Part shown: positions 1 through 13,304 of the stretch, one piece after another | How positions within the stretch are numbered: position 1 is the first letter of the stretch | Layout: each line of letters opens with the position of its first letter | DNA from: a virus | Taxonomy: Duplodnaviria; Heunggongvirae; Uroviricota; Caudoviricetes | Reading direction: 5' to 3' (one strand) | DNA: 14,574 bases | Virus record (IMG/VR): IMGVR_UViG_2851955134_000008 | The notes under the pieces: model-generated | What the model was told of the DNA's origin: nothing | The model's input: only the letters and a program-made list of their open reading frames with translations | The model's database searches: none | Position numbers and translations under genes: made by a program

Positions 1-1284
1 TTACTTCTTCGCCTCTGCAACCACTTTACTACCCACGCCGCGGTTATTGTATTCCCACATGCGGTTGTAGTTAGTGTCATTCAGATTGCGCTGTATTTCG
101 TCGTTATCATCTACGCTGCCGGTATTACCCGCAAACGGACGATTAGAGATCACCGCATCGGCCCACGGTTTAGCCGTGTTAAAACCTTCGTTGATGGCGC
201 TATCACGGATCACCACCTGACCGTTGGTATTGGCATCAACATCCAGCGAGCGGCCCAGTTGCGCCACACCATCACCGAAAGCATTGAAACGGCTGTTTAC
301 GGCGAGGAAACCGTAGTAAATGTTGGACAGCGTAGCCGGTGCAAACACATACGCTTCTTGCTGAGTACGTGAGTTCACCACGCGGAATTCGGTGTTATCG
401 AACACCACTGCGCCGCGACCAGAAACGATATCCACATCCCCTTCAATGTAGCTGTTGGTCACCAGCGTACGCGGCTGACGATTCGTTTCCAGACGGTTCT
501 GCACACCGCTGTTGGTGACAAAGAAGGTGTTCTGACGACCGAGAATGTTAACGTTGTTAATCTGTACCTGGTCACCATCAGTACGCAGTGCCACCGCCGG
601 ATGGTTACCTGCATCTACGCTATCGCCCAGCGTGTTTTCGATGGTCAGATTTTGCAGTTGCAGGCCATTGTTTTGTGACCAGAAGACCGCAGAGCAGAGA
701 ACACCGATACTGTCGCTGCGTTTGCTCTGGCAGCTATCGTACATATACCACGCTGGTTTACCTGGCATATATTTGCCGCGCGGGTTGACGTCGTGACGCC
801 AGTCGGCAGGGCTCATGCCACCATCAAGGGAAAGCCCAATCTTCACATCAATCGGTTTTTCACCTGTACCGTACAGAGTAATTCCACCCGGAGCGGCAGG
901 GACATATACCGTTCCCTGATACTCACCAGGCATCACGGCAATATACTGGCGCTTGTTGGTACGCTTGATAATTGCCGCATCTACCGCCGCCTGAATCGTG
1001 GTATGCGTTACACCTTGAGTGCCCGCCGGGCCGACAACAAAGTCAGGTTGCGCAGGCAGGGTAATCGGGGAAGGATTCCACGCTGCAGCACCTGGTGTCA
1101 GGGATGCAAAATAGTGTTGAGCATCGAAATTCTGCGCTTCTTTTGCCGACAGAATCGGGCGAGAAGAGGTACCAGGCGCGGTTTGATCAGAAGGACGTTG
1201 ATCGGGCGGGGTTGAGCTACAGGCGGTCAGCGTCACGCCAAAAGCCAATGCCAGCGCCAGACGGGAAACTGAAAATGTGTTCAC
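1..1284 (-). CDS. ybhC: YbhC-type outer-membrane lipoprotein (pectinesterase-like / acyl-CoA thioesterase family), chromosomal gene flanking attB-lambda
   Basis: Complete 427-aa ORF with a lipoprotein signal (LTACSS lipobox). It matches my recollection of E. coli YbhC and sits where ybhC lies beside the lambda attachment site. GC content is host-like. Confidence 0.85.
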   Translation of the reverse strand: MNTFSVSRLALALAFGVTLTACSSTPPDQRPSDQTAPGTSSRPILSAKEAQNFDAQHYFASLTPGAAAWNPSPITLPAQPDFVVGPAGTQGVTHTTIQAAVDAAIIKRTNKRQYIAVMPGEYQGTVYVPAAPGGITLYGTGEKPIDVKIGLSLDGGMSPADWRHDVNPRGKYMPGKPAWYMYDSCQSKRSDSIGVLCSAVFWSQNNGLQLQNLTIENTLGDSVDAGNHPAVALRTDGDQVQINNVNILGRQNTFFVTNSGVQNRLETNRQPRTLVTNSYIEGDVDIVSGRGAVVFDNTEFRVVNSRTQQEAYVFAPATLSNIYYGFLAVNSRFNAFGDGVAQLGRSLDVDANTNGQVVIRDSAINEGFNTAKPWADAVISNRPFAGNTGSVDDNDEIQRNLNDTNYNRMWEYNNRGVGSKVVAEAKK

Positions 1285-1315: not shown

Positions 1316-1420
1316 AATCCGTTGAAGCCTGCTTTTTTATACTAAGTTGGCATTATAAAAAAGCATTGCTTATCAATTTGTTGCAACGAACAGGTCACTA
1401 TCAGTCAAAATAAAATCATT
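1316..1420. other. attL: attL (B-O-P' junction) of a lambda-type integration; 15-bp core GCTTTTTTATACTAA at 1331..1345
   Basis: The exact lambda att core is read directly. To its left is GTTGAAGCCT, the attB bacterial arm as I recall it. To its right is GTTGGCATTATAAAAAAGCATTGCTTATCAATTTGTTGCAACGAACAGGTCACTATCAGTCAAAATAAAATCATTATTTGATTTC, which I recall as the lambda P' arm leading into the int 3' end. Confidence 0.85.
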
Positions 1421-1685
1421 ATTTGATTTCAATTTTGTCCCACTCCCTGCCTCTGTCATCACGATACTGTGATGCCATGGTGTCCGACTTATGCCCGAGA
1501 AGATGTTGAGCAAACTTATCGCTTATCTGCTTCTCATAGAGTCTTGCAGACAAACTGCGCAACTCGTGAAAGGTAGGCGGATCCCCTTCGAAGGAAAGAC
1601 CTGATGCTTTTCGTGCGCGCATAAAATACCTTGATACTGTGCCGGATGAAAGCGGTTCGCGACGAGTAGATGCAATTATGGTTTC
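1419..1685 (-). pseudogene. int: Integrase remnant (3' third of lambda-type int, lacks N-terminal arm-binding and core-binding domains and part of the catalytic domain)
   Basis: Only the Int C-terminal segment up to the stop is present. It still includes the region around the catalytic tyrosine (LSARLYEKQ) and an intact internal GGATCC at 1579..1584. No xis ORF is present. Confidence 0.8.
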
Positions 1686-2057
1686 AACCATGTACCGGAT
1701 GTGTTCTGCCATGCGCTCCTGAAACTCAACATCGTCATCAAACGCACGGGTAATGGCTTTTTTGCTGGCCCCGTGGCGTTGTAAATGATCGATGCAGAGT
1801 GATTCAAACAGGTGCTGGGGCAGACCTTTTTCCATGTCGTCTGCCAGTTCTGCCTCTTTCTCTTCACGGGCGATCTGCTGGTAGTGACGCGTCCAGCTCT
1901 GAGCCTCAAGACGATCCTGAATGTAATAAGCGTTCATGGCTGAACTCCTGAAATAGCTGTGAAAATATCGCCCGCGAAATGCCGGGCTGATTAGGAAAAC
2001 AGGAAAGGAGGTTAGTGAATGCTTTTGCTTGATCTCAGTTTCAGTATTAATATCCAT
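1419..2057 (-). CDS. gam: In-frame chimeric ORF: lambda Gam (GamL start 2057, GamS start 1937; first ~124-127 codons) fused to the C-terminal ~85-88 codons of lambda integrase
   Basis: The N-terminal part ([15 protein letters not shown]...[15 protein letters not shown]...EHIRYMV) matches recalled lambda Gam. The C-terminal part ([21 protein letters not shown]...REWDKIEIK) matches the recalled lambda Int C-terminus. A good RBS (CAGGAG) precedes the GamS ATG. Confidence 0.85.
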
Positions 2058-2155
2058 TTTTTATAAGCGTCGACGGCCTCACGAAACATCTTTTCATCGC
2101 CAATAAAAGTGGCGATAGTGAATTTAGTCTGGATAGCCATAAGTGTTTGATCCAT
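2012..2155 (-). CDS. kil: Kil (47-aa host cell-division inhibitor of lambda)
   Basis: [50 protein letters not shown] matches recalled lambda Kil. AGGAG lies 8 nt upstream of the ATG. It overlaps the cIII 3' end as in lambda. Confidence 0.75.
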
Positions 2156-2288
2156 TTTTTGGGACTCCTGGCTGATTAAGTATGTCGATAAGGCGTTTCC
2201 ATCCGTCACGTAATTTACGGGTGATTCGTTCAAGTAAAGATTCGGAAGGGCAGCCAGCAACAGGCCACCCTGCAATGGCATATTGCAT
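2124..2288 (-). CDS. cIII: CIII (54-aa FtsH/HflB inhibitor, lysogeny regulator)
   Basis: I translated this ORF by hand: [54 protein letters not shown]. It matches recalled lambda CIII and is below the 60-aa cutoff of the supplied ORF track. Confidence 0.8.
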   Translation of the reverse strand: MQYAIAGWPVAGCPSESLLERITRKLRDGWKRLIDILNQPGVPKNGSNTYGYPD

Positions 2289-2360
2289 GGTGTGCTCCTT
2301 ATTTATACATAACGAAAAACGCCTCGAGTGAAGCGTTATTGGTATGCGGTAACGCCGCGC

Positions 2361-2729
2361 TCAGGCGGCTTTGATAGTCATATCATCTGAATCAAATATT
2401 CCTGATGTATCGATATCGGTAATTCTTATTCCTTCGCTACCATCCATTGGAGGCCATCCTTCCTGACCATTTCCATCATTCCAGTCGAACTCACACACAA
2501 CACCATATGCATTTAAGTCGCTTGAAATTGCTATAAGCAGAGCATGTTGCGCCAGCATGATTAATACAGCATTTAATACAGAGCCGTGTTTATTGAGTCG
2601 GTATTCAGAGTCTGACCAGAAATTATTAATCTGGTGAAGTTTTTCCTCTGTCATTACGTCATGGTCGATTTCAATTTCTATTGATGCTTTCCAGTCGTAA
2701 TCAATGATGTATTTTTTGATGTTTGACAT
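2361..2729 (-). CDS. ea10: Ea10-like early pL-operon protein (122 aa)
   Basis: 122-aa ORF in the position and orientation of lambda ea10 between cIII and the sieB/N region. The sequence fits my recollection of Ea10, but I am less certain of this one. Confidence 0.65.
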   Translation of the reverse strand: MSNIKKYIIDYDWKASIEIEIDHDVMTEEKLHQINNFWSDSEYRLNKHGSVLNAVLIMLAQHALLIAISSDLNAYGVVCEFDWNDGNGQEGWPPMDGSEGIRITDIDTSGIFDSDDMTIKAA

Positions 2730-2989
2730 CTATTCATATCCTCACAGATAAAAAATCGCCCTCACATTGGAGGGCAAAGAAGATTTCCAATAATCAGAAC
2801 AAGTCGGCTCCTGTTTAGTTACGAGCGACATTGCTCAGTGTATTCACTCGTTGGAATGAATACACAGTGCAGTGTTTATTAGTATGCCTGTCTTTTAACC
2901 ACATCAGGCTCGGTGGTTCTCGTGTACCCCTACAGCGAGAAATCGGATAAACTCTATTCACCCCTACAGAGAGCAAAAGAGAAACGCCG

Positions 2990-3571
2990 ATGAACAACTC
3001 ATGGTGGCAGGAACTAATGCATTTTTTCCTGCAAGGAATGACACTTAAACAGTTGATTCATATGCTAATCATCCTAATCATATTGATTATTGTTATGCCT
3101 GTAAGCGTAAAAGAATGGATAAACCTGCATAATCCAGAAATCCTTCCTCATTACTGGATGTATTACATCCTGTTGTTTTGCGTTAGCTATGTGCTTAACG
3201 GCGTTGTTAATTCCGCTTATCACGCTGTGACTGAAAGAATTGAGATATTCGCTGCTCAGAAGCGCAAATCTAAAGAAGAGAAATACGTGCAAGATTTGTT
3301 TGATTCGTTAACTCTTGGAGAAAGAGCGTATTTGGCATTCGCTGTAGCCGCTAATAACCAGCTAAAGACAGAAAAGGGAAGCCCTGAAGCAATCTCATTG
3401 CTCGAAAAAGGGCTTCTTATTCGGGTACCTTCTGCTACTGGATATCCTGAAATCGACCGTTTTGTTATCCCGGAACGCTATAGAAATGAGTGCTACATTA
3501 GGTTTGCTGGGAAGAAAGACAGTCTTATGGATGAACTTATCGCTCAGGATAAGCATGGCAAAAACAAGTAA
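2990..3571 (+). CDS. sieB: SieB-like superinfection exclusion protein (inner-membrane abortive-infection protein)
   Basis: 193-aa ORF with a hydrophobic N-terminal segment (LIHMLIILIILIIVMPV) and a charged C-terminal domain. It is transcribed opposite to pL, between N and ea10, where sieB lies in lambda and P22. Confidence 0.6.
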   Translation: MNNSWWQELMHFFLQGMTLKQLIHMLIILIILIIVMPVSVKEWINLHNPEILPHYWMYYILLFCVSYVLNGVVNSAYHAVTERIEIFAAQKRKSKEEKYVQDLFDSLTLGERAYLAFAVAANNQLKTEKGSPEAISLLEKGLLIRVPSATGYPEIDRFVIPERYRNECYIRFAGKKDSLMDELIAQDKHGKNK

Positions 3572-3587
3572 TTAGCAAATTAATTTA

Positions 3588-3860
3588 TCATCTCGCCGTC
3601 AGTTGTTTTGATTTCCGGTAGCCTGCCGCGTAAATGGCTACGTTTGGCAGGCAAATACTTCCACTGCATTCATCTGCCTTCTTGCAGCGAAGGCTTCCGA
3701 GTGATGCTGCTTTGTCTGCTCTGACGCAACCAGAGAGCTTTAGCGCAATTTTTCGCGCCAGTCGCTGTTCTTGCATTGCCTGCTCACGTTGAGCCTGTCT
3801 GCGTGCTCTGCGGCGATTTCTGGCGTTATCGTCAGCCAGATATGTAATGACTACTGCCAT
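3588..3860 (-). CDS. N: N-type transcription antitermination protein (P22 gene 24-like C-terminus, distinct arginine-rich motif)
   Basis: 90-aa ORF with an N-terminal arginine-rich motif (NARNRRRARRQAQREQ). Its C-terminus (LPNVAIYAAGYRKSKQLTAR) closely resembles the recalled P22 gp24 C-terminus (LPGVALYAAGHRKSKQITAR). It is the first gene downstream of pL/nutL. Confidence 0.8.
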   Translation of the reverse strand: MAVVITYLADDNARNRRRARRQAQREQAMQEQRLARKIALKLSGCVRADKAASLGSLRCKKADECSGSICLPNVAIYAAGYRKSKQLTAR

Positions 3861-3967
3861 GTTGACCTCCGATGATTGACTTTGGCGGTGACGCGCCGGG
3901 TGCTTATCTTCCGGTTGCCGTCGTGCAGCTGCACTTCACGTCACCCCAAAGCCAACTACTCTTTGGT

Positions 3968-4008
3968 TCCCGCATTTCGGCGGGACAATCCCATCAATGT
4001 TAAAGAGC
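3968..4008 (-). promoter_or_regulatory. Putative nutL: boxA-like GCTCTTTAACA (3998..4008) followed by boxB-like hairpin (3968..3985)
   Basis: On the minus strand GCTCTTTAACA matches the boxA consensus. Twelve nt downstream is a hairpin (TCCCGC-CGAAAT-GCGGGA). It lies between pL and the N start codon. Confidence 0.5.
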
Positions 4009-4055
4009 CTGCCAATCTGTTCCGTTTGGCTACCAGCGTCCTGCCGATGACTTAA

Positions 4056-4108
4056 ATTTAAGATTTCTTTAACTATTGGTCAAGAGCGTTTTTGAAGAAA
4101 ACTTAAAT
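4056..4108 (-). promoter_or_regulatory. OL/pL region: at least two 18-bp P22-type operator sites (4056..4073 ATTTAAGATTTCTTTAAC; 4091..4108 TTTGAAGAAAACTTAAAT)
   Basis: Both sites fit the NNNNAAGNNNNCTTNNNN pattern shared with the three OR sites. They sit upstream of nutL and N on the leftward transcription unit. Confidence 0.6.
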
Positions 4109-4151
4109 TTTGTTGCGAAGCTTAAGTTTTGCTTTGATTTTTAAAGGAAAG

Positions 4152-4172
4152 AAAAAAAGGGGCGAATGCCCC
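4152..4172 (-). terminator. Rho-independent terminator immediately after the repressor gene
   Basis: On the minus strand a GGGGC-ATTC-GCCCC hairpin is followed by TTTTTTTC, starting right after the cI stop codon. Confidence 0.6.
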
Positions 4173-4823
4173 TTATGGAAGGTTTGCTATTTTTGCATCG
4201 ACAACTACACCGATGATTTTGCAGTTCCCGTTGATCTCAATCATCGGATATTGTGGGTTAAGTGGTTTTAGAAACCTTCTGCCAGCATCAATAACTAACT
4301 TCTTGAAAGTTGCCTCGTTTTCTCCTTCGAGCTTTGCCACTACCAGCTTCCCATTACGAGGTTCTACTTCAGGATCGACTAGTATTATCATCCCTTCCGG
4401 GATGCTAAGACCGGCTGGAGCCGTCATCGAATCACCCTTTACGTCCAGCCAAAACGAATCTTCTGAACAATCTACGGTTGTATCGTACCAGTTATCTATT
4501 GCACGCTTATGATATGGCTCTACAGCTTCCATCCAACATCCTGCGCTTACCCAACTAATTAGAGGATACGAACCTCTTGGATCATGCCTGCTGTGATAGG
4601 CAATGTTTGAAAGACTATCTTCTCCTTTCAACAAGTAATCAGGGGAGCACTGTAAAGCCTTGGCTAAAGCCAATAGGTTTTCGCCATTGGGCTCAGTTTC
4701 AGAACGCTCCCATTGGGAAATAGCAACATTAGACACGCCAACCATCTTGCCAAGGGCAGCCTGCCTAATCTTAAGTTCTTTTCTGCGAGCGCGAATACGC
4801 TCACCCATCAGTTGTGTATTCAT
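4173..4823 (-). CDS. cI: Prophage repressor, P22 C2-type (N-terminal HTH, C-terminal LexA-like S24 autopeptidase domain)
   Basis: 216-aa ORF, near-identical over its length to my recollection of P22 C2 (MNTQLMGERIRARRK.LKIRQAALGKMVGVSNVAISQWERSETEPNGENLLAL...). The Ser/Lys dyad context (GDSM ... K) is present. Confidence 0.9.
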   Translation of the reverse strand: MNTQLMGERIRARRKELKIRQAALGKMVGVSNVAISQWERSETEPNGENLLALAKALQCSPDYLLKGEDSLSNIAYHSRHDPRGSYPLISWVSAGCWMEAVEPYHKRAIDNWYDTTVDCSEDSFWLDVKGDSMTAPAGLSIPEGMIILVDPEVEPRNGKLVVAKLEGENEATFKKLVIDAGRRFLKPLNPQYPMIEINGNCKIIGVVVDAKIANLP

Positions 4824-4889
4824 AGTTAAGACATCTTAAATAAACTTGACTTAAGATTCCTTTGATAGATAATTTAAGTGTTCTTTAAT
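4824..4889. promoter_or_regulatory. OR3-OR2-OR1 operators (4824..4841, 4849..4866, 4872..4889) with pR (-35 TTGACT 4846..4851, -10 GATAAT 4868..4873) and divergent pRM
   Basis: Three 18-bp sites fit NNNNAAGNNNNCTTNNNN, with 7- and 5-bp spacers. OR1 ATTTAAGTGTTCTTTAAT matches the recalled P22 OR1. The region lies between the divergent cI and cro starts. Confidence 0.75.
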
Positions 4890-4903
4890 TTCGGAGCGAG
4901 TCT

Positions 4904-5023
4904 ATGTACAAGAAAGATGTTATCGACCACTTCGGAACCCAGCGTGCGGTACCGAATACTGAAGAATTACGCCAAAACACTGACAGGAGCAGGAGTATGA
5001 AGTCAGAGATAACAATCAACTAA
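4904..5023 (+). pseudogene. cro: cro remnant: first 16 codons of a P22-type cro, then unrelated sequence to a stop (39 codons)
   Basis: MYKKDVIDHFGTQRAV matches the recalled P22 Cro N-terminus. The next 23 codons (PNTEELRQNTDRSRSMKSEITIN) do not, and the ORF is too short for a Cro fold. Confidence 0.7.
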
Positions 5024-5085
5024 TACTGTTTTGTTGATTTTTGCTTGTAATTGGCGTTCTGGTCTGAGTTTTGTGGAGTAAGTTG

Positions 5086-5463
5086 ATGCGTGATATTCAG
5101 ATGGTTCTTGAGCGTTGGGGAGCGTGGGCGGCTAATAATCATGAAGATGTGACCTGGTCGTCCATTGCCGCCGGTTTTAAGGGATTAATTCCTTCAAAAG
5201 TAAAATCTCGCCCACAATGTTGTGACGATGACGCGATGATCATTTGCGGGTGCATGGCCCGTCTGAAAAAGAACAACAGCGATTTGCATGATTTATTGGT
5301 GGACTATTATGTCGGCGGCATGACTTTTATGGCGCTTGCACGTAAGCATGGGCGATCTGATTGTTGGGTTGGCAGGATGCTTCAGAAAGCTGAGGGCGTA
5401 GTGGAGGGTATGCTGATGGTGTTGGATCTCCGATTGGAGATGGATGCTGATTGTTCGAAATAA
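5086..5463 (+). CDS. Q: Late-gene antiterminator Q, phage-21 / DLP12 QuuD / P22 gp23 type
   Basis: [37 protein letters not shown]... matches the recalled QuuD/gp23 family. GGAG lies 7 nt upstream of ATG 5086. It is followed by a short leader and tR'. Confidence 0.85.
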
Positions 5464-5562
5464 TTAAAGGAAAAGTTGCTGTCTGATTGTCATTAGTCTA
5501 ACATTTTAAATGTTGGAATCGCAACGTAGTTATTATCATATAACAGCTTGTTTCCTGATTTA

Positions 5563-5590
5563 GCCAGCCTCCCCAAAGGCTGGTCTTTTT
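5563..5590 (+). terminator. tR'-like rho-independent terminator of the short late leader transcript (Q-antiterminated)
   Basis: CCAGCC-TCCCCAAA-GGCTGG hairpin followed by TCTTTTTCT, about 100 nt after the Q stop. The late promoter pR' and qut site are expected in 5464..5562 but are not resolved. Confidence 0.6.
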
Positions 5591-5618
5591 CTAATAAGTA
5601 TTATTTCGGGTAGGGATT

Positions 5619-6143
5619 TTATTGTTTAACCCATAATAATTCATTGACATTGAATCCCAACTTTTGAGCGGTTCGCACATAGTCTGCTTTTACTTTATCT
5701 GGAATAGTTGGGGTCCTTGCCAGAATCCATAGGTATTCTCTGTTCGGACCACTGACAAGAGCATACTTATACTCATCATCCAGTTTGATTACATTATAGC
5801 CACCATAGAAGGGGCCAAAAAACGAAACCTTCAATGCTGCAGTTTTAGTATCTCCAGTAAAGTATGCTTTACCTTCGCTCTCGCTCCATTTATTTTTCGT
5901 TGGATCGTATCCACGGTTAAGTACACGAATCCCTCCGTCGTTCCGTTTTCCATAAGTAGCGCTGACCTGTTCCAGACCACGTTCGAACCGGTTCTCGAGG
6001 CGAGCTATTTCATACCATTTTCCGAGGTAGCGGTTGGCGTCAAAATTTGTAATCGGCTGCACACCTTTAGGTGGTGTCGGGGCCTTACATGCTATAAGAG
6101 TGAAAGAGAGTGCAATGCCAGTCAACACAGGCCATAACTTCAT
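5619..6143 (-). CDS. Blc-like bacterial lipocalin, outer-membrane lipoprotein
   Basis: 174-aa ORF with a lipoprotein signal (LIAC lipobox). It resembles recalled E. coli Blc throughout (NFDANRYLGKWYEIARLENRFERGLEQVSATY ... KVSFFGPFYGGYNVI ... YLWILARTPT). Confidence 0.85.
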   Translation of the reverse strand: MKLWPVLTGIALSFTLIACKAPTPPKGVQPITNFDANRYLGKWYEIARLENRFERGLEQVSATYGKRNDGGIRVLNRGYDPTKNKWSESEGKAYFTGDTKTAALKVSFFGPFYGGYNVIKLDDEYKYALVSGPNREYLWILARTPTIPDKVKADYVRTAQKLGFNVNELLWVKQ

Positions 6144-6335
6144 AATAAATCCTGTACTTTTGATAGTTGAGAGTAAGTATGAAAGATAGATGATTACGAC
6201 CGATCACTTAAAGAACTTTCATACTATATTAGGAATAGTCCATAACAGAAAAATTGTCAGTGATGACGCCAGAAAGGCAATTTATTCCGTGCACTACACA
6301 GTTTATGTGTTAATGAATTAGTCAAGGGGGAGAAT

Positions 6336-7295
6336 ATGATAAAAAAACCTGTGATTGGAATCAGCGGTTGTTTGGCCGGTTCTGCTGTTCGTTTTGATGG
6401 TGGTCACAAAAGAGCTGACTTTTTAATGGACAAATTAGTGGAATGGGTAACATTCAGACCAGTATGTCCGGAAATGGCTATAGGGCTGCCAGTTCCGCGT
6501 CCTGCTCTACGTCTTGTGCGCTCGATGCAAGGAAATATACGGATGTGTTTCAGCCACGACCAGAATGAGGATGTGACAGAGAGAATGACAGAGTTTAGTC
6601 GTTCTTATATGGACAAATTAAAGGATGTATCGGGGTTTGTGGTTTGTGCTAAATCTCCCAGCTGTGGCATGGAGCGCGTGCGTGTCTATGATGAAAATGG
6701 TAATCGAGGTCGTAAAGATGGAGTGGGACTATTTACGAGCACTTTGATGGAAAAGTTTTCCTGGCTACCGGTTGAAGAGGATGGGCGATTACATGATCCA
6801 GTGCTTCGTGAGAATTTTGTTGAAAGAGTTTTTGCTTTGCATGAGCTCAATCACCTTTACAAGGAGAAATTATCAAGAAGAGAGTTATTAGCTTTTCATA
6901 GTCGTTATAAGCTTCAGTTGTTGGCGCATAGTCAGGCAGGCTATAAAGATATGGGACCATTTGTGGCTGCAATACACGAGTGGGCGGACCTTGAATCATA
7001 CTTTGAGGTGTATCGTGATAAGCTGATGGCGATTCTCAGAAAACCTGCATCACGTAAAAATCACACGAATGTGCTGATGCATATACAGGGGTATTTTAGT
7101 AACTACTTAAGTACACGCCAGCGTAAAGAGTTGAGCGAGGTTATACTTAACTATCGTTCTGGCACATTACCTCTTCTTGCGCCGTTGACTCTGCTGAAGC
7201 ATTATCTGGGTGAGTATCCTAATGATTACTTGCTTACACAGAATTACTTCGATCCCTATCCGGACGAACTGGCTCTAAGACTGATGGTAAATTAA
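6336..7295 (+). CDS. DUF523 (TudS-like, putative Fe-S thiouracil desulfidase fold) fused to a DUF1722 (YbgA-like) domain
   Basis: 319-aa ORF with a GGGGG-like RBS (AAGGGGGAG) upstream. The N-terminal third has three cysteines (C12, C44, C105) spaced as in the TudS family as I recall it. The family assignment is from memory and needs an HMM search. Confidence 0.55.
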   Translation: MIKKPVIGISGCLAGSAVRFDGGHKRADFLMDKLVEWVTFRPVCPEMAIGLPVPRPALRLVRSMQGNIRMCFSHDQNEDVTERMTEFSRSYMDKLKDVSGFVVCAKSPSCGMERVRVYDENGNRGRKDGVGLFTSTLMEKFSWLPVEEDGRLHDPVLRENFVERVFALHELNHLYKEKLSRRELLAFHSRYKLQLLAHSQAGYKDMGPFVAAIHEWADLESYFEVYRDKLMAILRKPASRKNHTNVLMHIQGYFSNYLSTRQRKELSEVILNYRSGTLPLLAPLTLLKHYLGEYPNDYLLTQNYFDPYPDELALRLMVN

Positions 7296-7646
7296 TTGTA
7301 TGCGATATCATCCAAAAGGATGAGTTCCTGCATGCAGGATATTTACAATCGTAAAAACTACACTATGATACCCAGAGTGTCAGTTTGTATAAAAACTCTG
7401 TTTACGCTGAAGAAACAATTGAGATGCAACTTAAAGTTGGTAAACATGCCAGTCAAAATATATAATATTATGATTCCACGCAGCTATATATAATATAACA
7501 GATTGGTTTAATAATTTGTCTTTGTGAGTTAAATACATAATTTTATACTTGTGATGCAATGAAATTTTCCTTATTGTTGAACTGGCGAATATTGATTTTC
7601 CACCTATACTTACCTGGTGTAACCCCAATGATATCAGGTGGATAAT

Positions 7647-8378
7647 ATGCCATACATATGTTCTATCATTTTGGTGTTGAACTCGTTTGATGTCCGAATT
7701 GGTAAAGAAGATATTTTGTTTAAAAAAGGAAGTGCTGTTCTCATTGATTACAATTTAAAAGATTTTTTTTCATCAAATATAGATCATGTAATGATCGTAG
7801 ATGTTGAAGAGAAAACAGTTAATGATTTCTTTAAAAGCAACACACTCTCACCTTTTTCTGTAAGAAGGTTTTATCCGGCATACTTGATGGTGGAATGTGA
7901 AGATTTTTCATTGTTAAAGAACTTGATTGCATGCTTGAATTGTGATGGCAGAACTGTGGATTTTGTTAGAAATCAAATATCACTTGCATGTCTTGCTATC
8001 TTATCTTCAGAGAAAATAGTGCAAAGTTTTTTATTTGGATGTCTTAATAGTTTAGGAAGTAAAGTTAAGGCTATTATTCACACGGATATATCTGCAGCAT
8101 GGAGACTTTGTGATATATCTTCAAGACTGTATCTGAGTGAAAGTCTGTTAAAAAGAAAATTAAAGCACGAAGGCTTATCATTTAGTAAGTTAATTCTTGA
8201 AGAGCGAATGGTGATGGCGGAAAGGTTATTAAGCTACAATTTATATTCTGTTGGAAAAGTTGCTGAGATATGCGGTTATGAAAACACGTCATATTTTGTA
8301 AGTGTTTTCAGAAGGTATTTTGGTGTTCCTCCCCATCAATATTCATCAAGATTTTTTTTAGAAAAAGACATGATGTAA
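7647..8378 (+). CDS. AraC/XylS-family transcriptional regulator (AppY/EnvY/GadX-like), in an AT-rich island
   Basis: C-terminal 100 aa carry the two-HTH AraC signature (..LSFSKLILEERMVMAERLL..VGKVAEICGYENTSYFVSVFRRYFGVPPHQY). AGGTGG lies 7 nt upstream of ATG 7647. An alternative GTG start is at 7638. Confidence 0.8.
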   Translation: MPYICSIILVLNSFDVRIGKEDILFKKGSAVLIDYNLKDFFSSNIDHVMIVDVEEKTVNDFFKSNTLSPFSVRRFYPAYLMVECEDFSLLKNLIACLNCDGRTVDFVRNQISLACLAILSSEKIVQSFLFGCLNSLGSKVKAIIHTDISAAWRLCDISSRLYLSESLLKRKLKHEGLSFSKLILEERMVMAERLLSYNLYSVGKVAEICGYENTSYFVSVFRRYFGVPPHQYSSRFFLEKDMM

Positions 8379-8565: not shown

Positions 8566-8781
8566 ATGAAATCCATGGATAAGTTAACAACGGGTGTCGC
8601 CTATGGCACCTCAGCAGGTAGTGCCGGTTACTGGTTTTTACAGCTGCTCGATAAAGTCACGCCCTCACAGTGGGCAGCAATAGGTGTGCTGGGTAGCCTG
8701 GTATTTGGCCTGCTGACGTACCTGACAAACCTTTATTTCAAGATTAAAGAAGATAAGCGCAAGGCTGCGAGAGGTGAATAA
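8566..8781 (+). CDS. S: Pinholin, phage-21 S21 type, with dual starts (MKSMDK: antiholin from 8566, holin from 8575)
   Basis: 71-aa ORF matching recalled S21/EssD (..[43 protein letters not shown]). Two transmembrane segments. It lies immediately upstream of the endolysin. Confidence 0.9.
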
Positions 8782-9278
8782 TGCCTCCATCATTACGAAA
8801 AGCCGTTGCTGCTGCTATTGGTGGCGGAGCAATTGCTATAGCATCAGTGTTAATCACTGGCCCAAGTGGTAACGATGGTCTGGAAGGTGTCAGCTACATA
8901 CCATACAAAGATATCGTTGGCGTATGGACTGTATGTCACGGGCATACAGGAAAAGACATCATTCCCGGTAAAACGTATACCGAAGCAGAATGCAAAGCCC
9001 TCCTGAATAAAGACCTTGCCACGGTAGCCAGACAAATTAACCCGTACATCAAAGTCGATATACCGGAAACAACGCGCGGCGCTCTTTACTCGTTCGTCTA
9101 TAACGTGGGCGCAGGCAATTTCAGAACATCTACTCTTCTTCGCAAAATAAACCAGGGCGATATCAGGGGCGCATGTGACCAGCTACGTCGCTGGGCATAC
9201 GCTGGCGGTAAGCAATGGAAAGGCCTGATGACTCGTCGTGAGATTGAGCGTGAGGTCTGTTTGTGGGGGCAACAATGA
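8781..9278 (+). CDS. R: SAR endolysin (signal-anchor-release lysozyme), R21 type
   Basis: 165-aa ORF with an N-terminal glycine/alanine-rich SAR segment ([20 protein letters not shown]) followed by a lysozyme domain. Its start overlaps the S stop (TAATG). Confidence 0.9.
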
Positions 9279-9739
9279 GCAGGGTAACCGCGATTATCTC
9301 CGCTCTGGTTATCTGCATCATCGTCTGCCTGTCATGGGCTGTTAATCATTACCGTGATAACGCCATTACCTACAAAGCCCAGCGCGACAAAAATGCCAGA
9401 GAACTGAAGCTGGCGAACGCGGCAATTACTGACATGCAGATGCGTCAGCGTGATGTTGCTGCGCTCGATGCAAAATACACGAAGGAGTTAGCTGATGCGA
9501 AAGCTGAAAATGATGCTCTGCGTGATGATGTTGCCGCTGGTCGTCGTCGGTTGCACATCAAAGCAGTCTGTCAGTCAGTGCGTGAAGCCACCACCGCCTC
9601 CGGCGTGGATAATGCAGCCTCCCCCCGACTGGCAGACACCGCTGAACGGGATTATTTCACCCTCCGGGAACGACTGGTAATGATGCAGGCCCAACTTGAA
9701 GGTGCTCAGCAATACATAACCGAGCAGTGTTTAAAGTAA
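9275..9739 (+). CDS. Rz: Rz i-spanin (inner-membrane spanin subunit)
   Basis: Starts at ATGA, overlapping the R stop. It has an N-terminal transmembrane segment and a coiled-coil-like periplasmic domain. Rz1 is embedded in the +1 frame. Confidence 0.85.
9495..9680 (+). CDS. Rz1: Rz1 o-spanin (outer-membrane lipoprotein), embedded within Rz in a different frame
   Basis: 61-aa ORF with a lipobox (LVVVGC) and a proline-rich mature region ([15 protein letters not shown]), entirely inside Rz. Confidence 0.8.
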
Positions 9740-11471: not shown

Positions 11472-13304
11472 ATGAGCGAGAAATTAAAGATAGTCTATCG
11501 CCCATTACAAGAATTGTCACCGTATGCGCACAACGCCAGGACGCACAGTACTGAGCAGGTGGCACAACTGGTAGAAAGTATTAAGCAATTCGGCTGGACT
11601 AATCCGGTGCTGATTGACGAAAAGGGCGAAATTATTGCGGGTCACGGTCGTGTTATGGCGGCTGAAATGCTCAAAATGGATTCTGTTCCGGTCATTGTTC
11701 TGTCTGGCCTGACGGATGAGCAGAAAAAGGCGTACCGCCTGGCAGATAATCGCCTACCGATGAATGCTGGCTGGGATGAAGATCTGTTGCGGATGGAGCT
11801 GTCGGACCTAATCAATGCTGATTTTGATGTCTCCCTGACAGGCTTCGGCCCGACACAAATTGATGAACTGTTGACGGATGTTTTGCCCGGTACAGGAAAT
11901 AAGGAGGAGGGGAATACCAATATATCCGGCGTCACGGTGGTGTTCCGGGCCGGTGAGCAGGAGCAGACACCGCCGGAGGGATTTGAATCCTCCGGCTCCG
12001 AGACGGTGCTCGGTACAGAAGTGAAATATGACACGCCGATCACCCGGACCATCACGTCGGCAAACATTGACCGTCTGCGTTTTACTTTCGGCGTGCAGGC
12101 ACTGGTGGAAACCACCTCAAAGGGGGACAGGAATCCATCGGAAGTCCGCCTGCTGGTTCAGATACAACGTAACGGTGGCTGGGTGACGGAAAAAGACATC
12201 ACCATTAAGGGTAAAACCACTTCACAGTATCTGGCCTCGGTGGTGGTGGATAACCTGCCGCCGCGCCCGTTCAGTATCCGGATGCGCAGGATGACGCCGG
12301 ACAGCACCACAGACCAGCTGCAGAACAAAACGCTCTGGTCGTCATACACCGAAATTATCGATGTGAAACAGTGCTACCCGAACACGGCACTGTTCGGCGT
12401 GCAGGTGGACTCGGAGCAGTTCGGCAGCCAGCAGGTGAGCCGTAATTATCATCTGCGCGGGCGTATTCTGCAGGTGCCGTCGAATTATAACCCGCAGACG
12501 CGGCAATACAGCGGTATCTGGGACGGAACGTTTAAACCGGCATACAGCAACAACATGGCCTGGTGTATGTGGGATATGCTGACCCATCCGCGCTACGGCA
12601 TGGGGAAACGTCTTGGTGCAGCGGATGTAGATAAATGGGCGCTGTATGTCATCGGCCAGTACTGCGACCAGTCGGTGCCGGACGGCTTTGGCGGCACGGA
12701 GCCGCGCATCACCTGTAATGCGTACCTGACCACACAGCGCAAGGCGTGGGATGTGCTCAGTGATTTCTGCTCGGCGATGCGCTGTATGCCGGTATGGAAC
12801 GGGCAGACGCTGACGTTCGTGCAGGACCGACCATCAGATAAGGTGTGGACCTATAACCGCAGTAATGTGGTGATGCCGGATGATGGCGCGCCGTTCCGCT
12901 ACAGCTTCAGCGCCCTGAAGGACCGCCATAATGCCGTTGAGGTGAACTGGATTGACCCGAACAACGGCTGGGAGACGGCGACAGAGCTTGTTGAAGATAC
13001 GCAGGCCATTGCCCGTTACGGTCGTAACGTCACGAAGATGGATGCCTTTGGCTGTACCAGCCGGGGGCAGGCGCACCGCGCCGGGCTGTGGCTGATTAAA
13101 ACGGAACTGCTGGAAACGCAGACCGTGGACTTCAGCGTGGGTGCGGAAGGGCTTCGCCATGTACCGGGGGATGTCATTGAAATCTGCGATGATGACTATG
13201 CGGGTATCAGCATCGGCGGGCGTGTGCTGGCGGTGAACAGCCAGACCCGGACGCTGACGCTCGACCGTGAAATCACGCTGCCATCCTCCGGTAAATCCGT
13301 TTAA
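11472..13304 (+). CDS. J: In-frame chimera: ParB-like nuclease-domain protein N-terminus (~145 aa, YnaK-like) fused to an internal segment of lambda tail-tip protein J (to about J residue 530), then a stop 3 codons past the J homology
   Basis: Residues 1-145 carry a ParB/Srx-like motif ([11 protein letters not shown]). From [36 protein letters not shown] to REITLPSSG the sequence matches recalled lambda J. J's N-terminal ~65 residues and C-terminal ~600 residues, including the receptor-binding end, are absent. Confidence 0.85.

What the first reader, a model, noticed from the sequence alone, without database searches (positions are those of the whole stretch)
2990..4903. Protective functions kept while mobility is lost: SieB plus a P22-type immunity module in a lambda-type left arm
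The repressor, its full OR and OL operator sets, a terminator after cI, and a SieB-like exclusion gene all look intact. Integration, replication and structural genes are gone. The immunity specificity is P22-c2-like, although the flanking left-arm genes are lambda-like and the N has its own arginine-rich motif. The remnant would still make its host immune to P22-immunity phages and SieB-sensitive phages.
Basis: inference. Interest (0 to 1): 0.4.

Follow-up and report, generated by a model that had tools for sequence, protein, structure and literature searches.

The report
Decayed prophage keeps P22-type immunity switch
This is an ordinary, recently decayed lambda/P22-hybrid prophage at the E. 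coli lambda attachment site; its repressor, operators and sieB exclusion gene are intact, but the repressor also holds back a cell-division killer and a lysis cassette, so keeping it need not mean selection for protection.

Summary
Window 2990..4903 contains an intact P22-type sieB/esc, an N gene with nutL, pL and three OL sites, a strong terminator, a 216-aa repressor 93% identical to P22 C2 with an identical helix-turn-helix, and three OR sites with pR. Int is truncated. Xis, O and P are deleted. Only fragments of structural genes remain.

- The remnant differs from fuller prophages at the same site by two deletions and about 0.05% substitutions, so intact ORFs are expected without selection.
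- Protective genes are not the only survivors. Kil, cIII, N, Q and a complete holin/endolysin/spanin cassette also survive.
- The cro-to-ylcG deletion removed nutR and left Q 182 bp downstream of the pR-driven cro start codon. The repressor probably has to stay to silence lethal genes.
- Genomes and scaffolds sharing that deletion carry two independent pR hexamer mutations and a kil nonsense mutation.
- An ETEC lineage lost kil through Q in one IS1-flanked deletion that includes sieB and the repressor, yet kept int and xis.

SieB is P22-like, not lambda-like. Immunity to immC-P22 phages such as JEP4 is plausible but untested, and phages carrying an antirepressor should bypass it. This is a new member of a known kind, of low to moderate interest.

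The parts
1419..2057 (-). In-frame gam'-'int fusion ORF. It marks deletion D1, which removed the int N-terminal part, xis, the ea genes, exo, bet and the gam 3' end. The junction lies at 1678-1685 with 8 bp of microhomology.
   Evidence: Pfam finds Gam at residues 41-128 and Phage_integrase at residues 124-201. blastn against the fuller prophage L001 maps the junction.
2012..2155 (-). kil, 47 aa and intact. It encodes a cell-division inhibitor transcribed from pL.
   Evidence: Pfam Lambda_Kil. The toxicity of Kil is described in PMC3961180 and PMC11762379. Five related contigs carry K33stop at window position 2059.
2124..2301 (-). cIII (2124..2288) with its 5' thermoregulator RNA element (2243..2301).
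   Evidence: Pfam Lambda_CIII. Rfam Lambda_thermo scores 88.5 bits, E 7e-21.
2361..2729 (-). ea10-like gene (DUF2528).
   Evidence: Pfam DUF2528. It lies in the block that is 98.6% identical to lambda.
2885..2969 (+). 85-bp block just upstream of sieB, nearly invariant in lambda, P22 and this window. It probably carries the sieB promoter.
   Evidence: Three-way alignment. The blastn blocks agree. The promoter assignment rests on my recollection of Ranade and Poteete 1993 and was not verified here.
2990..3571 (+). sieB, 193 aa, P22 type. The internal Esc start M25 is at 3062.
   Evidence: Pfam SieB. phrog_1301 matches full length. It is 84% identical to P22 SieB and 24% identical to lambda SieB. 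The esc annotation comes from AB426868.
3588..3860 (-). N antiterminator, 90 aa, with the arginine-rich stretch NARNRRRARRQAQRE.
   Evidence: Pfam N_peptide. It is 97-99% identical to N of phages JEP4, HK140 and ECP1.
3968..4009 (-). nutL. boxA GCTCTTTAA lies at 4000-4009 and the boxB hairpin UCCCGC-CGAAAU-GCGGGA lies at 3968-3985.
   Evidence: The fold shows the hairpin. The same hairpin sits downstream of cro, as nutR, in the fuller prophage L001. The window has only this one copy.
4055..4137 (-). pL (-10 at 4055-4060, -35 at 4078-4083) with OL1 4056-4073, OL2 4091-4108 and OL3 4120-4137.
   Evidence: Promoter scan. Alignments to P22 and JEP4. Exact operator-core matches.
4150..4174 (-). Intrinsic terminator immediately after the repressor stop codon.
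   Evidence: Terminator scan. Free energy -12.2 kcal/mol, z -3.3. The hairpin is conserved in P22 and JEP4, but the T-run is present only here and in JEP4.
4173..4823 (-). Repressor, 216 aa, P22 C2 type, with the autocleavage site and Ser-Lys dyad.
4824..4889 (.). OR3 4824-4841, OR2 4849-4866 and OR1 4872-4889. pR has -35 at 4846-4851 and -10 at 4868-4873.
4904..5023 (+). Truncated cro: 16 native codons followed by 23 foreign codons. It marks deletion D2, with the junction at 4950/4951. D2 removed the cro 3' end, nutR, cII, O, P, ren, the nin genes, rusA and the ylcG 5' end.
   Evidence: Translation. blastn against L001.
5086..5584 (+). Q antiterminator (5086..5463), a candidate pR' and the promoter-proximal terminator tR' (5563-5584). 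The Q start codon lies 182 bp downstream of the cro' start codon, and no terminator is predicted between them.
   Evidence: Pfam Phage_antitermQ matches 1-118 of 118 positions. Terminator scan. Sequence read directly.
8566..9739 (+). Complete lysis cassette: holin S (8566..8781), endolysin R (8781..9278) and spanins Rz (9263..9739) and Rz1 (9495..9680).
   Evidence: Full-length PHROG matches. Pfam calls on the near-identical locus L006.

Best explanation
The window is the E. coli chromosome at the lambda attachment site, next to ybhC. It carries a lambda/P22 mosaic prophage that had already lost its morphogenesis genes and then lost two more blocks. D2 runs from cro to ylcG and came first. D1 runs from int to gam.

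What lies between the two deletions is a complete lysogenic-maintenance unit:
- A P22-C2-type repressor is made from PRM and its transcript is stopped by a strong terminator.
- The repressor binds three OR and three OL sites and shuts pR and pL.
- sieB/esc is transcribed from its own promoter on the other strand.

So the host probably gets immunity to immC-P22 phages that lack an antirepressor, plus SieB-type abortive exclusion. This part is inferred.

The repressor is also the only brake on functions that can kill the cell. pL drives N, ea10, cIII and kil. After D2, pR reads through a 39-codon cro stub straight into Q, with no nutR, tR1 or Cro. Q can then switch on the intact holin, endolysin and spanin genes.

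I therefore read the retention of the repressor and operators mainly as recency plus a constraint: losing the repressor alone would be lethal. Protection is probably a real but unproven side benefit.

Shown: the anatomy, the homologies, the two deletions, their order, and the variants in related contigs. Inferred: expression, immunity, lethality on derepression, and selection on pR and kil.
For: - Identity and intactness of every element.
- Site and fuller relatives: 99.9-100% identity with strain MB46, with two clean deletion junctions.
- Neither junction occurs in any of 5426 complete E. coli genomes. Both occur in a few draft genomes and metagenome scaffolds.
- L020 has D2 without D1, so D2 came first.
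- nutR is present in the fuller prophage and absent from the window.
- No terminator is predicted between pR and Q.
- Among 10 D2 carriers, 5 have pR -35 TTGACT>TTAACT and 1 has pR -10 GATAAT>GTTAAT. Among contigs with the D1 fusion, 5 have kil K33stop.
- The TTAACT allele has no exact match in the 488 complete genomes that carry this OR region, whereas the window allele is exact in 70.
- A rough binomial for two pR-hexamer hits among 22 isolated changes gives 5e-4, or 4e-3 for a three-promoter target.
- Kil 1-32 would cut into the helix-turn-helix core at residues 4-38 (PMC11762379).
- The ETEC lineage lost kil, sieB, N, cI and Q in a single IS1-flanked deletion while keeping int and xis.
- Precedent: RacR, the repressor of the cryptic prophage Rac, is essential because it silences toxic neighbours (PMC5700373, PMC5700377).
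- A viable E. coli phage, JEP4, has a 97% identical repressor and identical OR1, OR3 and OL2.
Against: - Nothing here measures expression, immunity or lethality.
- The five carriers of the -35 mutation may descend from one event, so only two independent pR events are certain.
- The enrichment test is post hoc and the carrier sample is small.
- Four D2 carriers, including this window, have wild-type pR and kil and are evidently viable. The configuration is tolerated while the repressor works.
- Whether Q from pR can drive transcription across about 3 kb of cargo, including a convergent blc gene, to reach S is assumed from the shared architecture of the fuller prophages. It has not been shown.
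- The pR mutations could also act by raising PRM activity rather than by lowering Q expression.
Confidence: 0.6

Rival explanations
1. Adaptive retention. The repressor-operator module and sieB persist because they protect the host from homoimmune and SieB-sensitive phages. Selection has kept them while the mobility genes decayed.
For: - Both genes are of the kind expressed from a prophage, and both are full length.
- No related contig has a change in sieB. Only one has a missense change in cI.
- Phages with the same immunity type infect E. coli, for example JEP4.
- Exclusion by P22 C2 and SieB is documented (PMC10883804).
Against: - Divergence from fuller prophages is about 0.05%, so intactness carries no signal of selection.
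- Kil, N, Q and the lysis genes are equally intact.
- The ETEC lineage dropped the whole protective block and kept int and xis.
- Many immC-P22 phages carry an antirepressor region, JEP4 included, and this would bypass repressor-only immunity.
- SieB has no hit in the PADLOC defence models, and no E. coli phage is known to be sensitive to it.
Confidence: 0.25
2. Pure recency. The region is intact only because the deletions are very young. There is neither host benefit nor constraint, and it will decay like the rest.
For: - There are 0 differences over 3274 bp and 6 over about 11 kb against a fuller prophage. The chance of no substitution in the 1.9-kb region is 0.35.
- The junctions are rare: absent from 5426 complete genomes, and seen on about 10 and 7 contigs in the large collection.
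Against: - The few changes that have accumulated in related contigs fall on the pR hexamers twice and on kil as a nonsense mutation. That is not what neutral decay predicts.
- Co-loss of cI with kil and Q in the ETEC lineage fits a constraint.
Confidence: 0.15
3. The module is P22-like in sequence but not in specificity or function. Operator and repressor changes would make it heteroimmune to P22-immunity phages, or the repressor would be inactive.
For: - 11 of 108 operator positions differ from P22: OR2 3, OR3 1, OL1 4 and OL3 3.
- The repressor has 15 substitutions, including K16E and S54A in the N-terminal domain.
Against: - The helix-turn-helix at residues 21-53 is identical, and OR1 and OL2 are identical.
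- The same repressor-operator set is 100% identical in fuller prophages, and the exact OR sequence occurs in 70 complete genomes.
- It is 97% identical in the viable phage JEP4, so the pair is a working one.
- An inactive repressor would leave kil and Q unrepressed.
Confidence: 0.1

Closest known systems
Salmonella phage P22 immC region (c2, OR/OL, PRM/pR/pL, cro)
   Same: - The gene order is N, OL/pL, c2, OR/pR, cro.
- The repressor is 93% identical with an identical helix-turn-helix.
- OR1 and OL2 are identical, and the pR hexamers are identical.
- A hairpin follows the c2 stop codon.
   Different: - It sits in an E. coli chromosome beside lambda-type gam, kil, cIII and ea10.
- cro is cut after codon 16.
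- No immI (mnt/arc/ant) is present.
- The hairpin after c2 has a run of seven T, which P22 lacks.
- OR2, OL1 and OL3 carry 3-4 substitutions each.
- N and nutL are a different allele.
P22 sieB/esc superinfection exclusion system
   Same: - 84% identity and the same length class.
- The same position and orientation between N and the rest of the left arm.
- The internal Met25 (Esc start) is kept.
- The upstream 85-bp block is conserved.
   Different: - The C-terminal third is diverged.
- The sas antisense promoter was not verified. Only a 9/12 promoter-like site on the minus strand at 3105-3077 was found.
- No phenotype is known in E. coli.
Rac cryptic prophage of E. coli K-12 (racR, ydaS/T, kilR, sieB, trkG)
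   Same: - It is a defective lambdoid prophage.
- It keeps a repressor that is indispensable because it silences toxic neighbours, together with sieB, a kil gene and a trkG cargo gene (PMC5700373, PMC5700377, PMC12482147). The presence of sieB and trkG in Rac is from my own knowledge.
- The right part of this window, from trkG through ParB'-J' to the tail-fibre fragments, resembles Rac's layout.
   Different: - A different attachment site, att-lambda versus ttcA.
- A different repressor family and operators.
- Here the lethal output includes a Q-driven lysis cassette placed close downstream of pR by a deletion.
Escherichia phage JEP4 (Lederbergvirus) and HK140/ECP1
   Same: - JEP4 has the same N allele (97-99% identity across these phages) and nutL.
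- Its repressor is 97% identical.
- OR1, OR3 and OL2 are identical, and it has the same T-run terminator.
   Different: - These are complete, viable phages with morphogenesis genes.
- JEP4 has an immI-like region.
- No sieB is annotated in JEP4, and the blastn match skips the sieB region.
Laboratory lambda imm22 hybrid phages
   Same: Lambda arms combined with the P22 immunity region. This comparison is from my own knowledge and was not tested here.
   Different: This element is natural and defective. The P22-type segment here also includes sieB.

Membership tests
CI/C2/LexA-type phage repressor (HTH plus S24 self-cleaving domain) | N-terminal helix-turn-helix DNA-binding domain. | tested here: met
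   Pfam HTH_3 at residues 10-64, 61.8 bits. Residues 1-76 match the P22 C2 N-terminal-domain structures 1adr and 2r1j at E 1e-37 to 1e-39.
CI/C2/LexA-type phage repressor (HTH plus S24 self-cleaving domain) | C-terminal S24 peptidase domain with an Ala-Gly cleavage site and a Ser-Lys dyad. | tested here: met
   Pfam Peptidase_S24 matches 1-116 of 116 positions at 107 bits. A94-G95, S132 (in GDSM) and K174 (in FKKL) are invariant against P22 C2. The C-terminal domain aligns with lambda cI structures.
CI/C2/LexA-type phage repressor (HTH plus S24 self-cleaving domain) | Cognate palindromic operators in triplets on both sides of the gene, overlapping divergent promoters. | tested here: met
   Four exact and one one-mismatch 18-bp sites flank the gene, plus an irregular OL3. 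Five exact core matches are found against 0.23 expected. They are positionally homologous to the P22 and JEP4 operators.
CI/C2/LexA-type phage repressor (HTH plus S24 self-cleaving domain) | Demonstrated operator binding, repression and RecA-stimulated cleavage. | not testable with these tools
   Needs biochemistry or genetics.
SieB superinfection exclusion (PF14163; P22 type) | Sequence membership above the curated threshold, over the full length. | tested here: met
   Pfam SieB scores 90.4 bits against a cutoff of 26. phrog_1301 matches 1-193 of 193 positions, E 6e-124. Identity to P22 SieB is 84%.
SieB superinfection exclusion (PF14163; P22 type) | In-frame internal start that gives Esc, the self-immunity product. 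| tested here: met
   Esc is annotated from codon 25 of P22 sieB. Met25 is conserved here.
SieB superinfection exclusion (PF14163; P22 type) | Own promoter, active in the lysogen and opposite to pL transcription, plus the sas antisense RNA. | tested here: inconclusive
   The orientation and the conserved 85-bp upstream block fit. The consensus scan finds no strong promoter there, and only a weak minus-strand site inside sieB.
SieB superinfection exclusion (PF14163; P22 type) | Abortive exclusion of superinfecting phages. | not testable with these tools
   Needs plating and one-step growth experiments.
Lambdoid N antitermination system | N protein with an N-terminal arginine-rich motif, and a nut site (boxA plus boxB hairpin) in the pL transcript. 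| tested here: met
   Pfam N_peptide at 57.5 bits. boxA and the boxB hairpin lie downstream of pL. An identical boxB occurs at nutR in the fuller prophage.
Defective (cryptic) prophage | Loss of integration/excision, replication and morphogenesis functions relative to a complete relative. | tested here: met
   Int survives only as a C-terminal fragment fused to Gam. xis through bet, and cro' through ylcG, are deleted relative to L001. Only J, tfa and stf fragments remain. The element ends shortly beyond the window in the related locus L005.

The most novel reading that the evidence does not exclude
The cro-to-ylcG deletion turned this remnant into a repressor-gated suicide switch. DNA damage or an incoming antirepressor would derepress pR, which now reads directly into Q and from there to the holin, endolysin and spanin genes, while pL gives Kil. 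The recurrent pR hexamer mutations (-35 G>A and -10 A>T) and the kil nonsense mutation in related genomes would then be selection caught in the act of defusing the switch. That would give a step-by-step natural record of prophage domestication. Alternatively, in the lineages that keep it, the switch acts as an altruistic abortive-infection trigger.
Probability: 0.3. Interest if true: 0.5.

Novelty: new member of a known kind. Interest (0 to 1): 0.28.

Why it matters
Taken alone, the region is a textbook P22-type immunity switch with sieB inside one of many E. coli lambdoid remnants. Standard annotation pipelines already label its genes.

Its modest value is as a clean natural example of how prophages decay. 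The same element at one site exists in at least four states:
- nearly full;
- D2 only;
- D2 plus D1;
- the IS1 deletion.

The few later point mutations fall on the promoter and the toxin gene that the remaining repressor has to control. If confirmed, this supports the idea that repressors of cryptic prophages persist because they hold lethal genes hostage, as RacR does, rather than because they protect the host. It would also provide a tractable system to test that idea.

Tried and rejected
- The 212-aa gam'-'int fusion was not on record. The 172-aa form starting at Met41 was.
- Two draft assemblies call the repressor as 119 aa, which looked like a truncation. The DNA has no difference from the window in 4173..4823, so this is a gene-calling artefact.
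- Exact scans for the D2 junction in JGI metagenome contigs and in GTDB species-representative genomes found nothing.
- Weak Rfam hits (RefA1 at 4025-4176 and Betaproteobacteria_toxic_sRNA at 5549-5592) fall far below the gathering scores and overlap the cI and tR' terminator hairpins. I rejected them.
- The operator-core pattern with one mismatch allowed is not enriched over the whole window (11 matches against 7.2 expected). Only the exact pattern is informative.
- The exact match at 5858-5871 inside blc is treated as chance.
- No PADLOC defence model matches SieB, ea10, N or the cargo genes. The repressor hits only generic HTH models.
- I could not retrieve the original P22 operator and sieB promoter papers. 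Operator names follow positional homology and my recollection.
Full report
**1. What the window is**

The left end encodes YbhC (1..1284, minus strand), the host gene next to the lambda attachment site. From about 1419 onward the window is a lambdoid prophage.

Strain MB46 and a handful of other complete E. coli genomes carry a fuller version at the same site. Its gene order is int, xis, ea genes, exo, bet, gam, kil, cIII, DUF2528, sieB, N, repressor, cro, cII, O, P, ren, nin genes, rusA, ylcG, Q, blc, ybgA, an AraC-like gene, holin, endolysin, Rz and trkG. Even that version has no head or tail genes.

Against it the window is 99.9-100% identical, with six mismatches in about 11 kb and none in 1678-4951. 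It has two clean deletions.
- D1 joins int to gam at 1678-1685 with 8 bp of microhomology. It creates an in-frame gam'-'int ORF with Pfam Gam and Phage_integrase domains.
- D2 joins cro codon 16 to the 3' part of ylcG at 4950/4951. It leaves a 39-codon cro stub.

Neither junction is found in any of 5426 complete E. coli genomes. Both occur in a few draft genomes and metagenome scaffolds. Scaffold L020 has D2 but an intact gam, so D2 preceded D1.

**2. Check of the observation**

- sieB (2990..3571) is a full-length P22-type gene. It scores 90 bits against Pfam SieB and matches phrog_1301 over 1-193 of 193 positions. It is 84% identical to P22 SieB but only 24% identical to lambda SieB. The internal Met25 that starts Esc in P22 is kept.
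- N (3588..3860) matches Pfam N_peptide. Its allele is that of the viable E. coli phages JEP4, HK140 and ECP1, at 97-99% identity.
- Downstream of pL lie boxA (4000-4009) and a boxB hairpin (3968-3985). The same hairpin occurs after cro, as nutR, in the fuller prophage and is missing from the window.
- pL (TTGACC, 17 bp, TAAATT) and pR (TTGACT, 16 bp, GATAAT) are found by the scan.
- The repressor (4173..4823) has HTH_3 and Peptidase_S24 domains and is 93% identical to P22 C2. Its helix-turn-helix is identical, and it keeps A94-G95, S132 and K174. Its N-terminal domain matches the solved C2 structures.
- A hairpin with seven following T sits right after its stop codon. The free energy is -12.2 kcal/mol, and no shuffle folds as well.

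Operators by position:
- OR1 (4872-4889) and OL2 (4091-4108) are identical to P22.
- OR3 differs at one central base.
- OR2 differs at 3 positions, OL1 at 4 and OL3 at 3.
- OL3 is irregular in P22 too.
- The operator core occurs exactly five times against 0.23 expected, and four of those flank the repressor gene.

**3. Mosaic structure**

Window 1678-2880 is 98.6% identical to lambda and covers gam to just past ea10. Windows 2885-3650 and 3992-4951 are 83-87% identical to P22, and the N/nutL segment between them is a third type. An 85-bp block just upstream of sieB is almost invariant in lambda, P22 and the window, although the SieB proteins differ greatly. From memory of Ranade and Poteete 1993, the lambda sieB promoter was found by its homology to that of P22. 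I could not retrieve that paper.

**4. What else survives**

The remnant keeps more than protective genes.
- kil (47 aa), cIII with its thermoregulator RNA (Rfam 88.5 bits), ea10 and N are intact.
- Q is intact, followed by a promoter-proximal terminator.
- A complete lysis cassette is intact: holin, endolysin, Rz and Rz1.

D2 removed nutR, the sequence downstream of cro where tR1 lies in lambda, cII, O, P and the nin region. pR now reads through the cro stub into Q, whose start codon lies 182 bp downstream of the cro' start codon. No terminator is predicted between them.

Kil blocks cell division (PMC3961180; PMC11762379). A repressor that must stay because it silences toxic neighbours is known from Rac (PMC5700373, PMC5700377).

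**5. Variants in related contigs**

Among the ten distinct sequences that share D2, point changes are few but pointed.
- Five carry 4848 G>A, which changes the pR -35 from TTGACT to TTAACT.
- One (L020) carries 4869 A>T, which changes the pR -10 from GATAAT to GTTAAT.
- Five contigs with D1 carry 2059 T>A, which is kil K33stop.
- One has a 1-bp deletion between OL2 and OL3.

The window has the ancestral alleles. It is identical to the fuller prophage at these positions, and P22 also has TTGACT. The TTAACT allele has no exact match among the 488 complete genomes that carry this OR region, while the window's allele is exact in 70. A rough post hoc binomial for two pR-hexamer hits among 22 isolated changes gives 5e-4, or 4e-3 for a target of three promoters. 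Kil 1-32 would cut into the helix-turn-helix core at residues 4-38, and even the 1-36 form is about tenfold weaker.

Caveat: the -35 allele may be a single event, so only two independent pR events are certain.

**6. A counterexample lineage**

In ETEC-type genomes such as FORC_031, with at least eleven in the top hits, the same element has one IS1-flanked deletion that runs from an ea gene into blc. It removes exo through kil, sieB, N, the repressor, cro through Q. It keeps int and xis as well as the lysis genes and trkG. Protective genes were therefore lost while mobility genes stayed. The repressor went together with the pL and pR outputs it controls.

**7. Interpretation**

At 0.05% divergence about one substitution is expected in the 1.9-kb region, and the chance of none is 0.35. 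Intact ORFs therefore say nothing about selection.

My best reading is a recently decayed prophage whose maintenance circuit still works. The repressor is retained mainly because losing it alone would unleash kil and the Q-driven lysis genes. Protection from homoimmune phages and SieB exclusion are probable by-products.

Limits on the protection claim:
- Repressor-only immunity is expected to fail against phages that bring an antirepressor. Ant inhibits C2 (PMC12111858), and JEP4 has an immI-like region.
- SieB aborts P22-like phages but not P22 itself, through Esc and sas (PMC10883804, PMC12197685).
- Which E. coli phages are sensitive to this SieB is unknown.

**8. Novelty and score**

The elements are all of known kinds and are labelled by standard annotation. 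The exact doubly deleted remnant is rare and uncharacterised, so I class it as a new member of a known kind. The pR and kil variants in related contigs are the most interesting by-product and deserve a proper phylogenetic count and simple genetics. Overall interest is low to moderate.

Noticed in passing
window 4848 and 4869 (pR hexamers); loci L006, L007/L014, L009, L016, L019, L020: Six of the ten sequences that share the cro-ylcG deletion carry a pR hexamer mutation. Five have -35 TTGACT>TTAACT and one has -10 GATAAT>GTTAAT. The TTAACT allele has no exact match in the 488 complete E. coli genomes with this OR region.
   Followed up: partly
window 2059 (kil codon 33); loci L006, L007, L009, L010, L011: A T>A change makes kil K33stop in five related contigs. 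The window itself has the intact 47-codon kil.
   Followed up: partly
L005 (E. coli FORC_031, NZ_CP013190) 4476-6094: ETEC-type genomes have the same element with one IS1-flanked deletion from an ea gene into blc. It removes exo through kil, sieB, N, cI, cro through Q. It keeps int, xis, the lysis genes and trkG.
   Followed up: partly
window 2885-2969: An 85-bp block upstream of sieB is almost invariant in lambda, P22 and this window, although the SieB proteins are only 24% identical between the lambda and P22 types. It contains a GCCTG...CAGGC hairpin and a CCCCTACAG direct repeat. It may be the sieB promoter or a module-boundary sequence.
   Followed up: partly
window 11472-13304: One 610-aa ORF fuses a ParB-like N-terminal domain (ynaK-like) to an internal fragment of tail-tip protein J. 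With trkG upstream and tail-fibre fragments downstream on the other strand, the right part resembles the Rac prophage layout.
   Followed up: no
window 5619-8378: Cargo genes sit between Q/tR' and the holin gene: blc (lipocalin, minus strand, convergent with late transcription), a YbgA-family gene (DUF523/DUF1722) and an AraC-like regulator. The AraC-like gene is frameshifted in two related contigs (L008 and L017).
   Followed up: no
window 2243-2301: The lambda cIII thermoregulator RNA element is present and matches full length (Rfam RF01804, 88.5 bits).
   Followed up: yes
L007/L014 and L008/L015, repressor gene: Two draft assemblies call the repressor as a 119-aa protein that lacks the HTH. 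The DNA is identical to the window there, so this is a gene-calling artefact, not a truncation.
   Followed up: yes
L006, window-equivalent 4108-4111: One related genome has lost one T from the four-T run between OL2 and OL3, which changes the operator spacing by 1 bp.
   Followed up: no
window 5858-5871: An exact match to the P22-type operator core (TAAAGTATGCTTTA) lies inside blc. It is probably chance.
   Followed up: no
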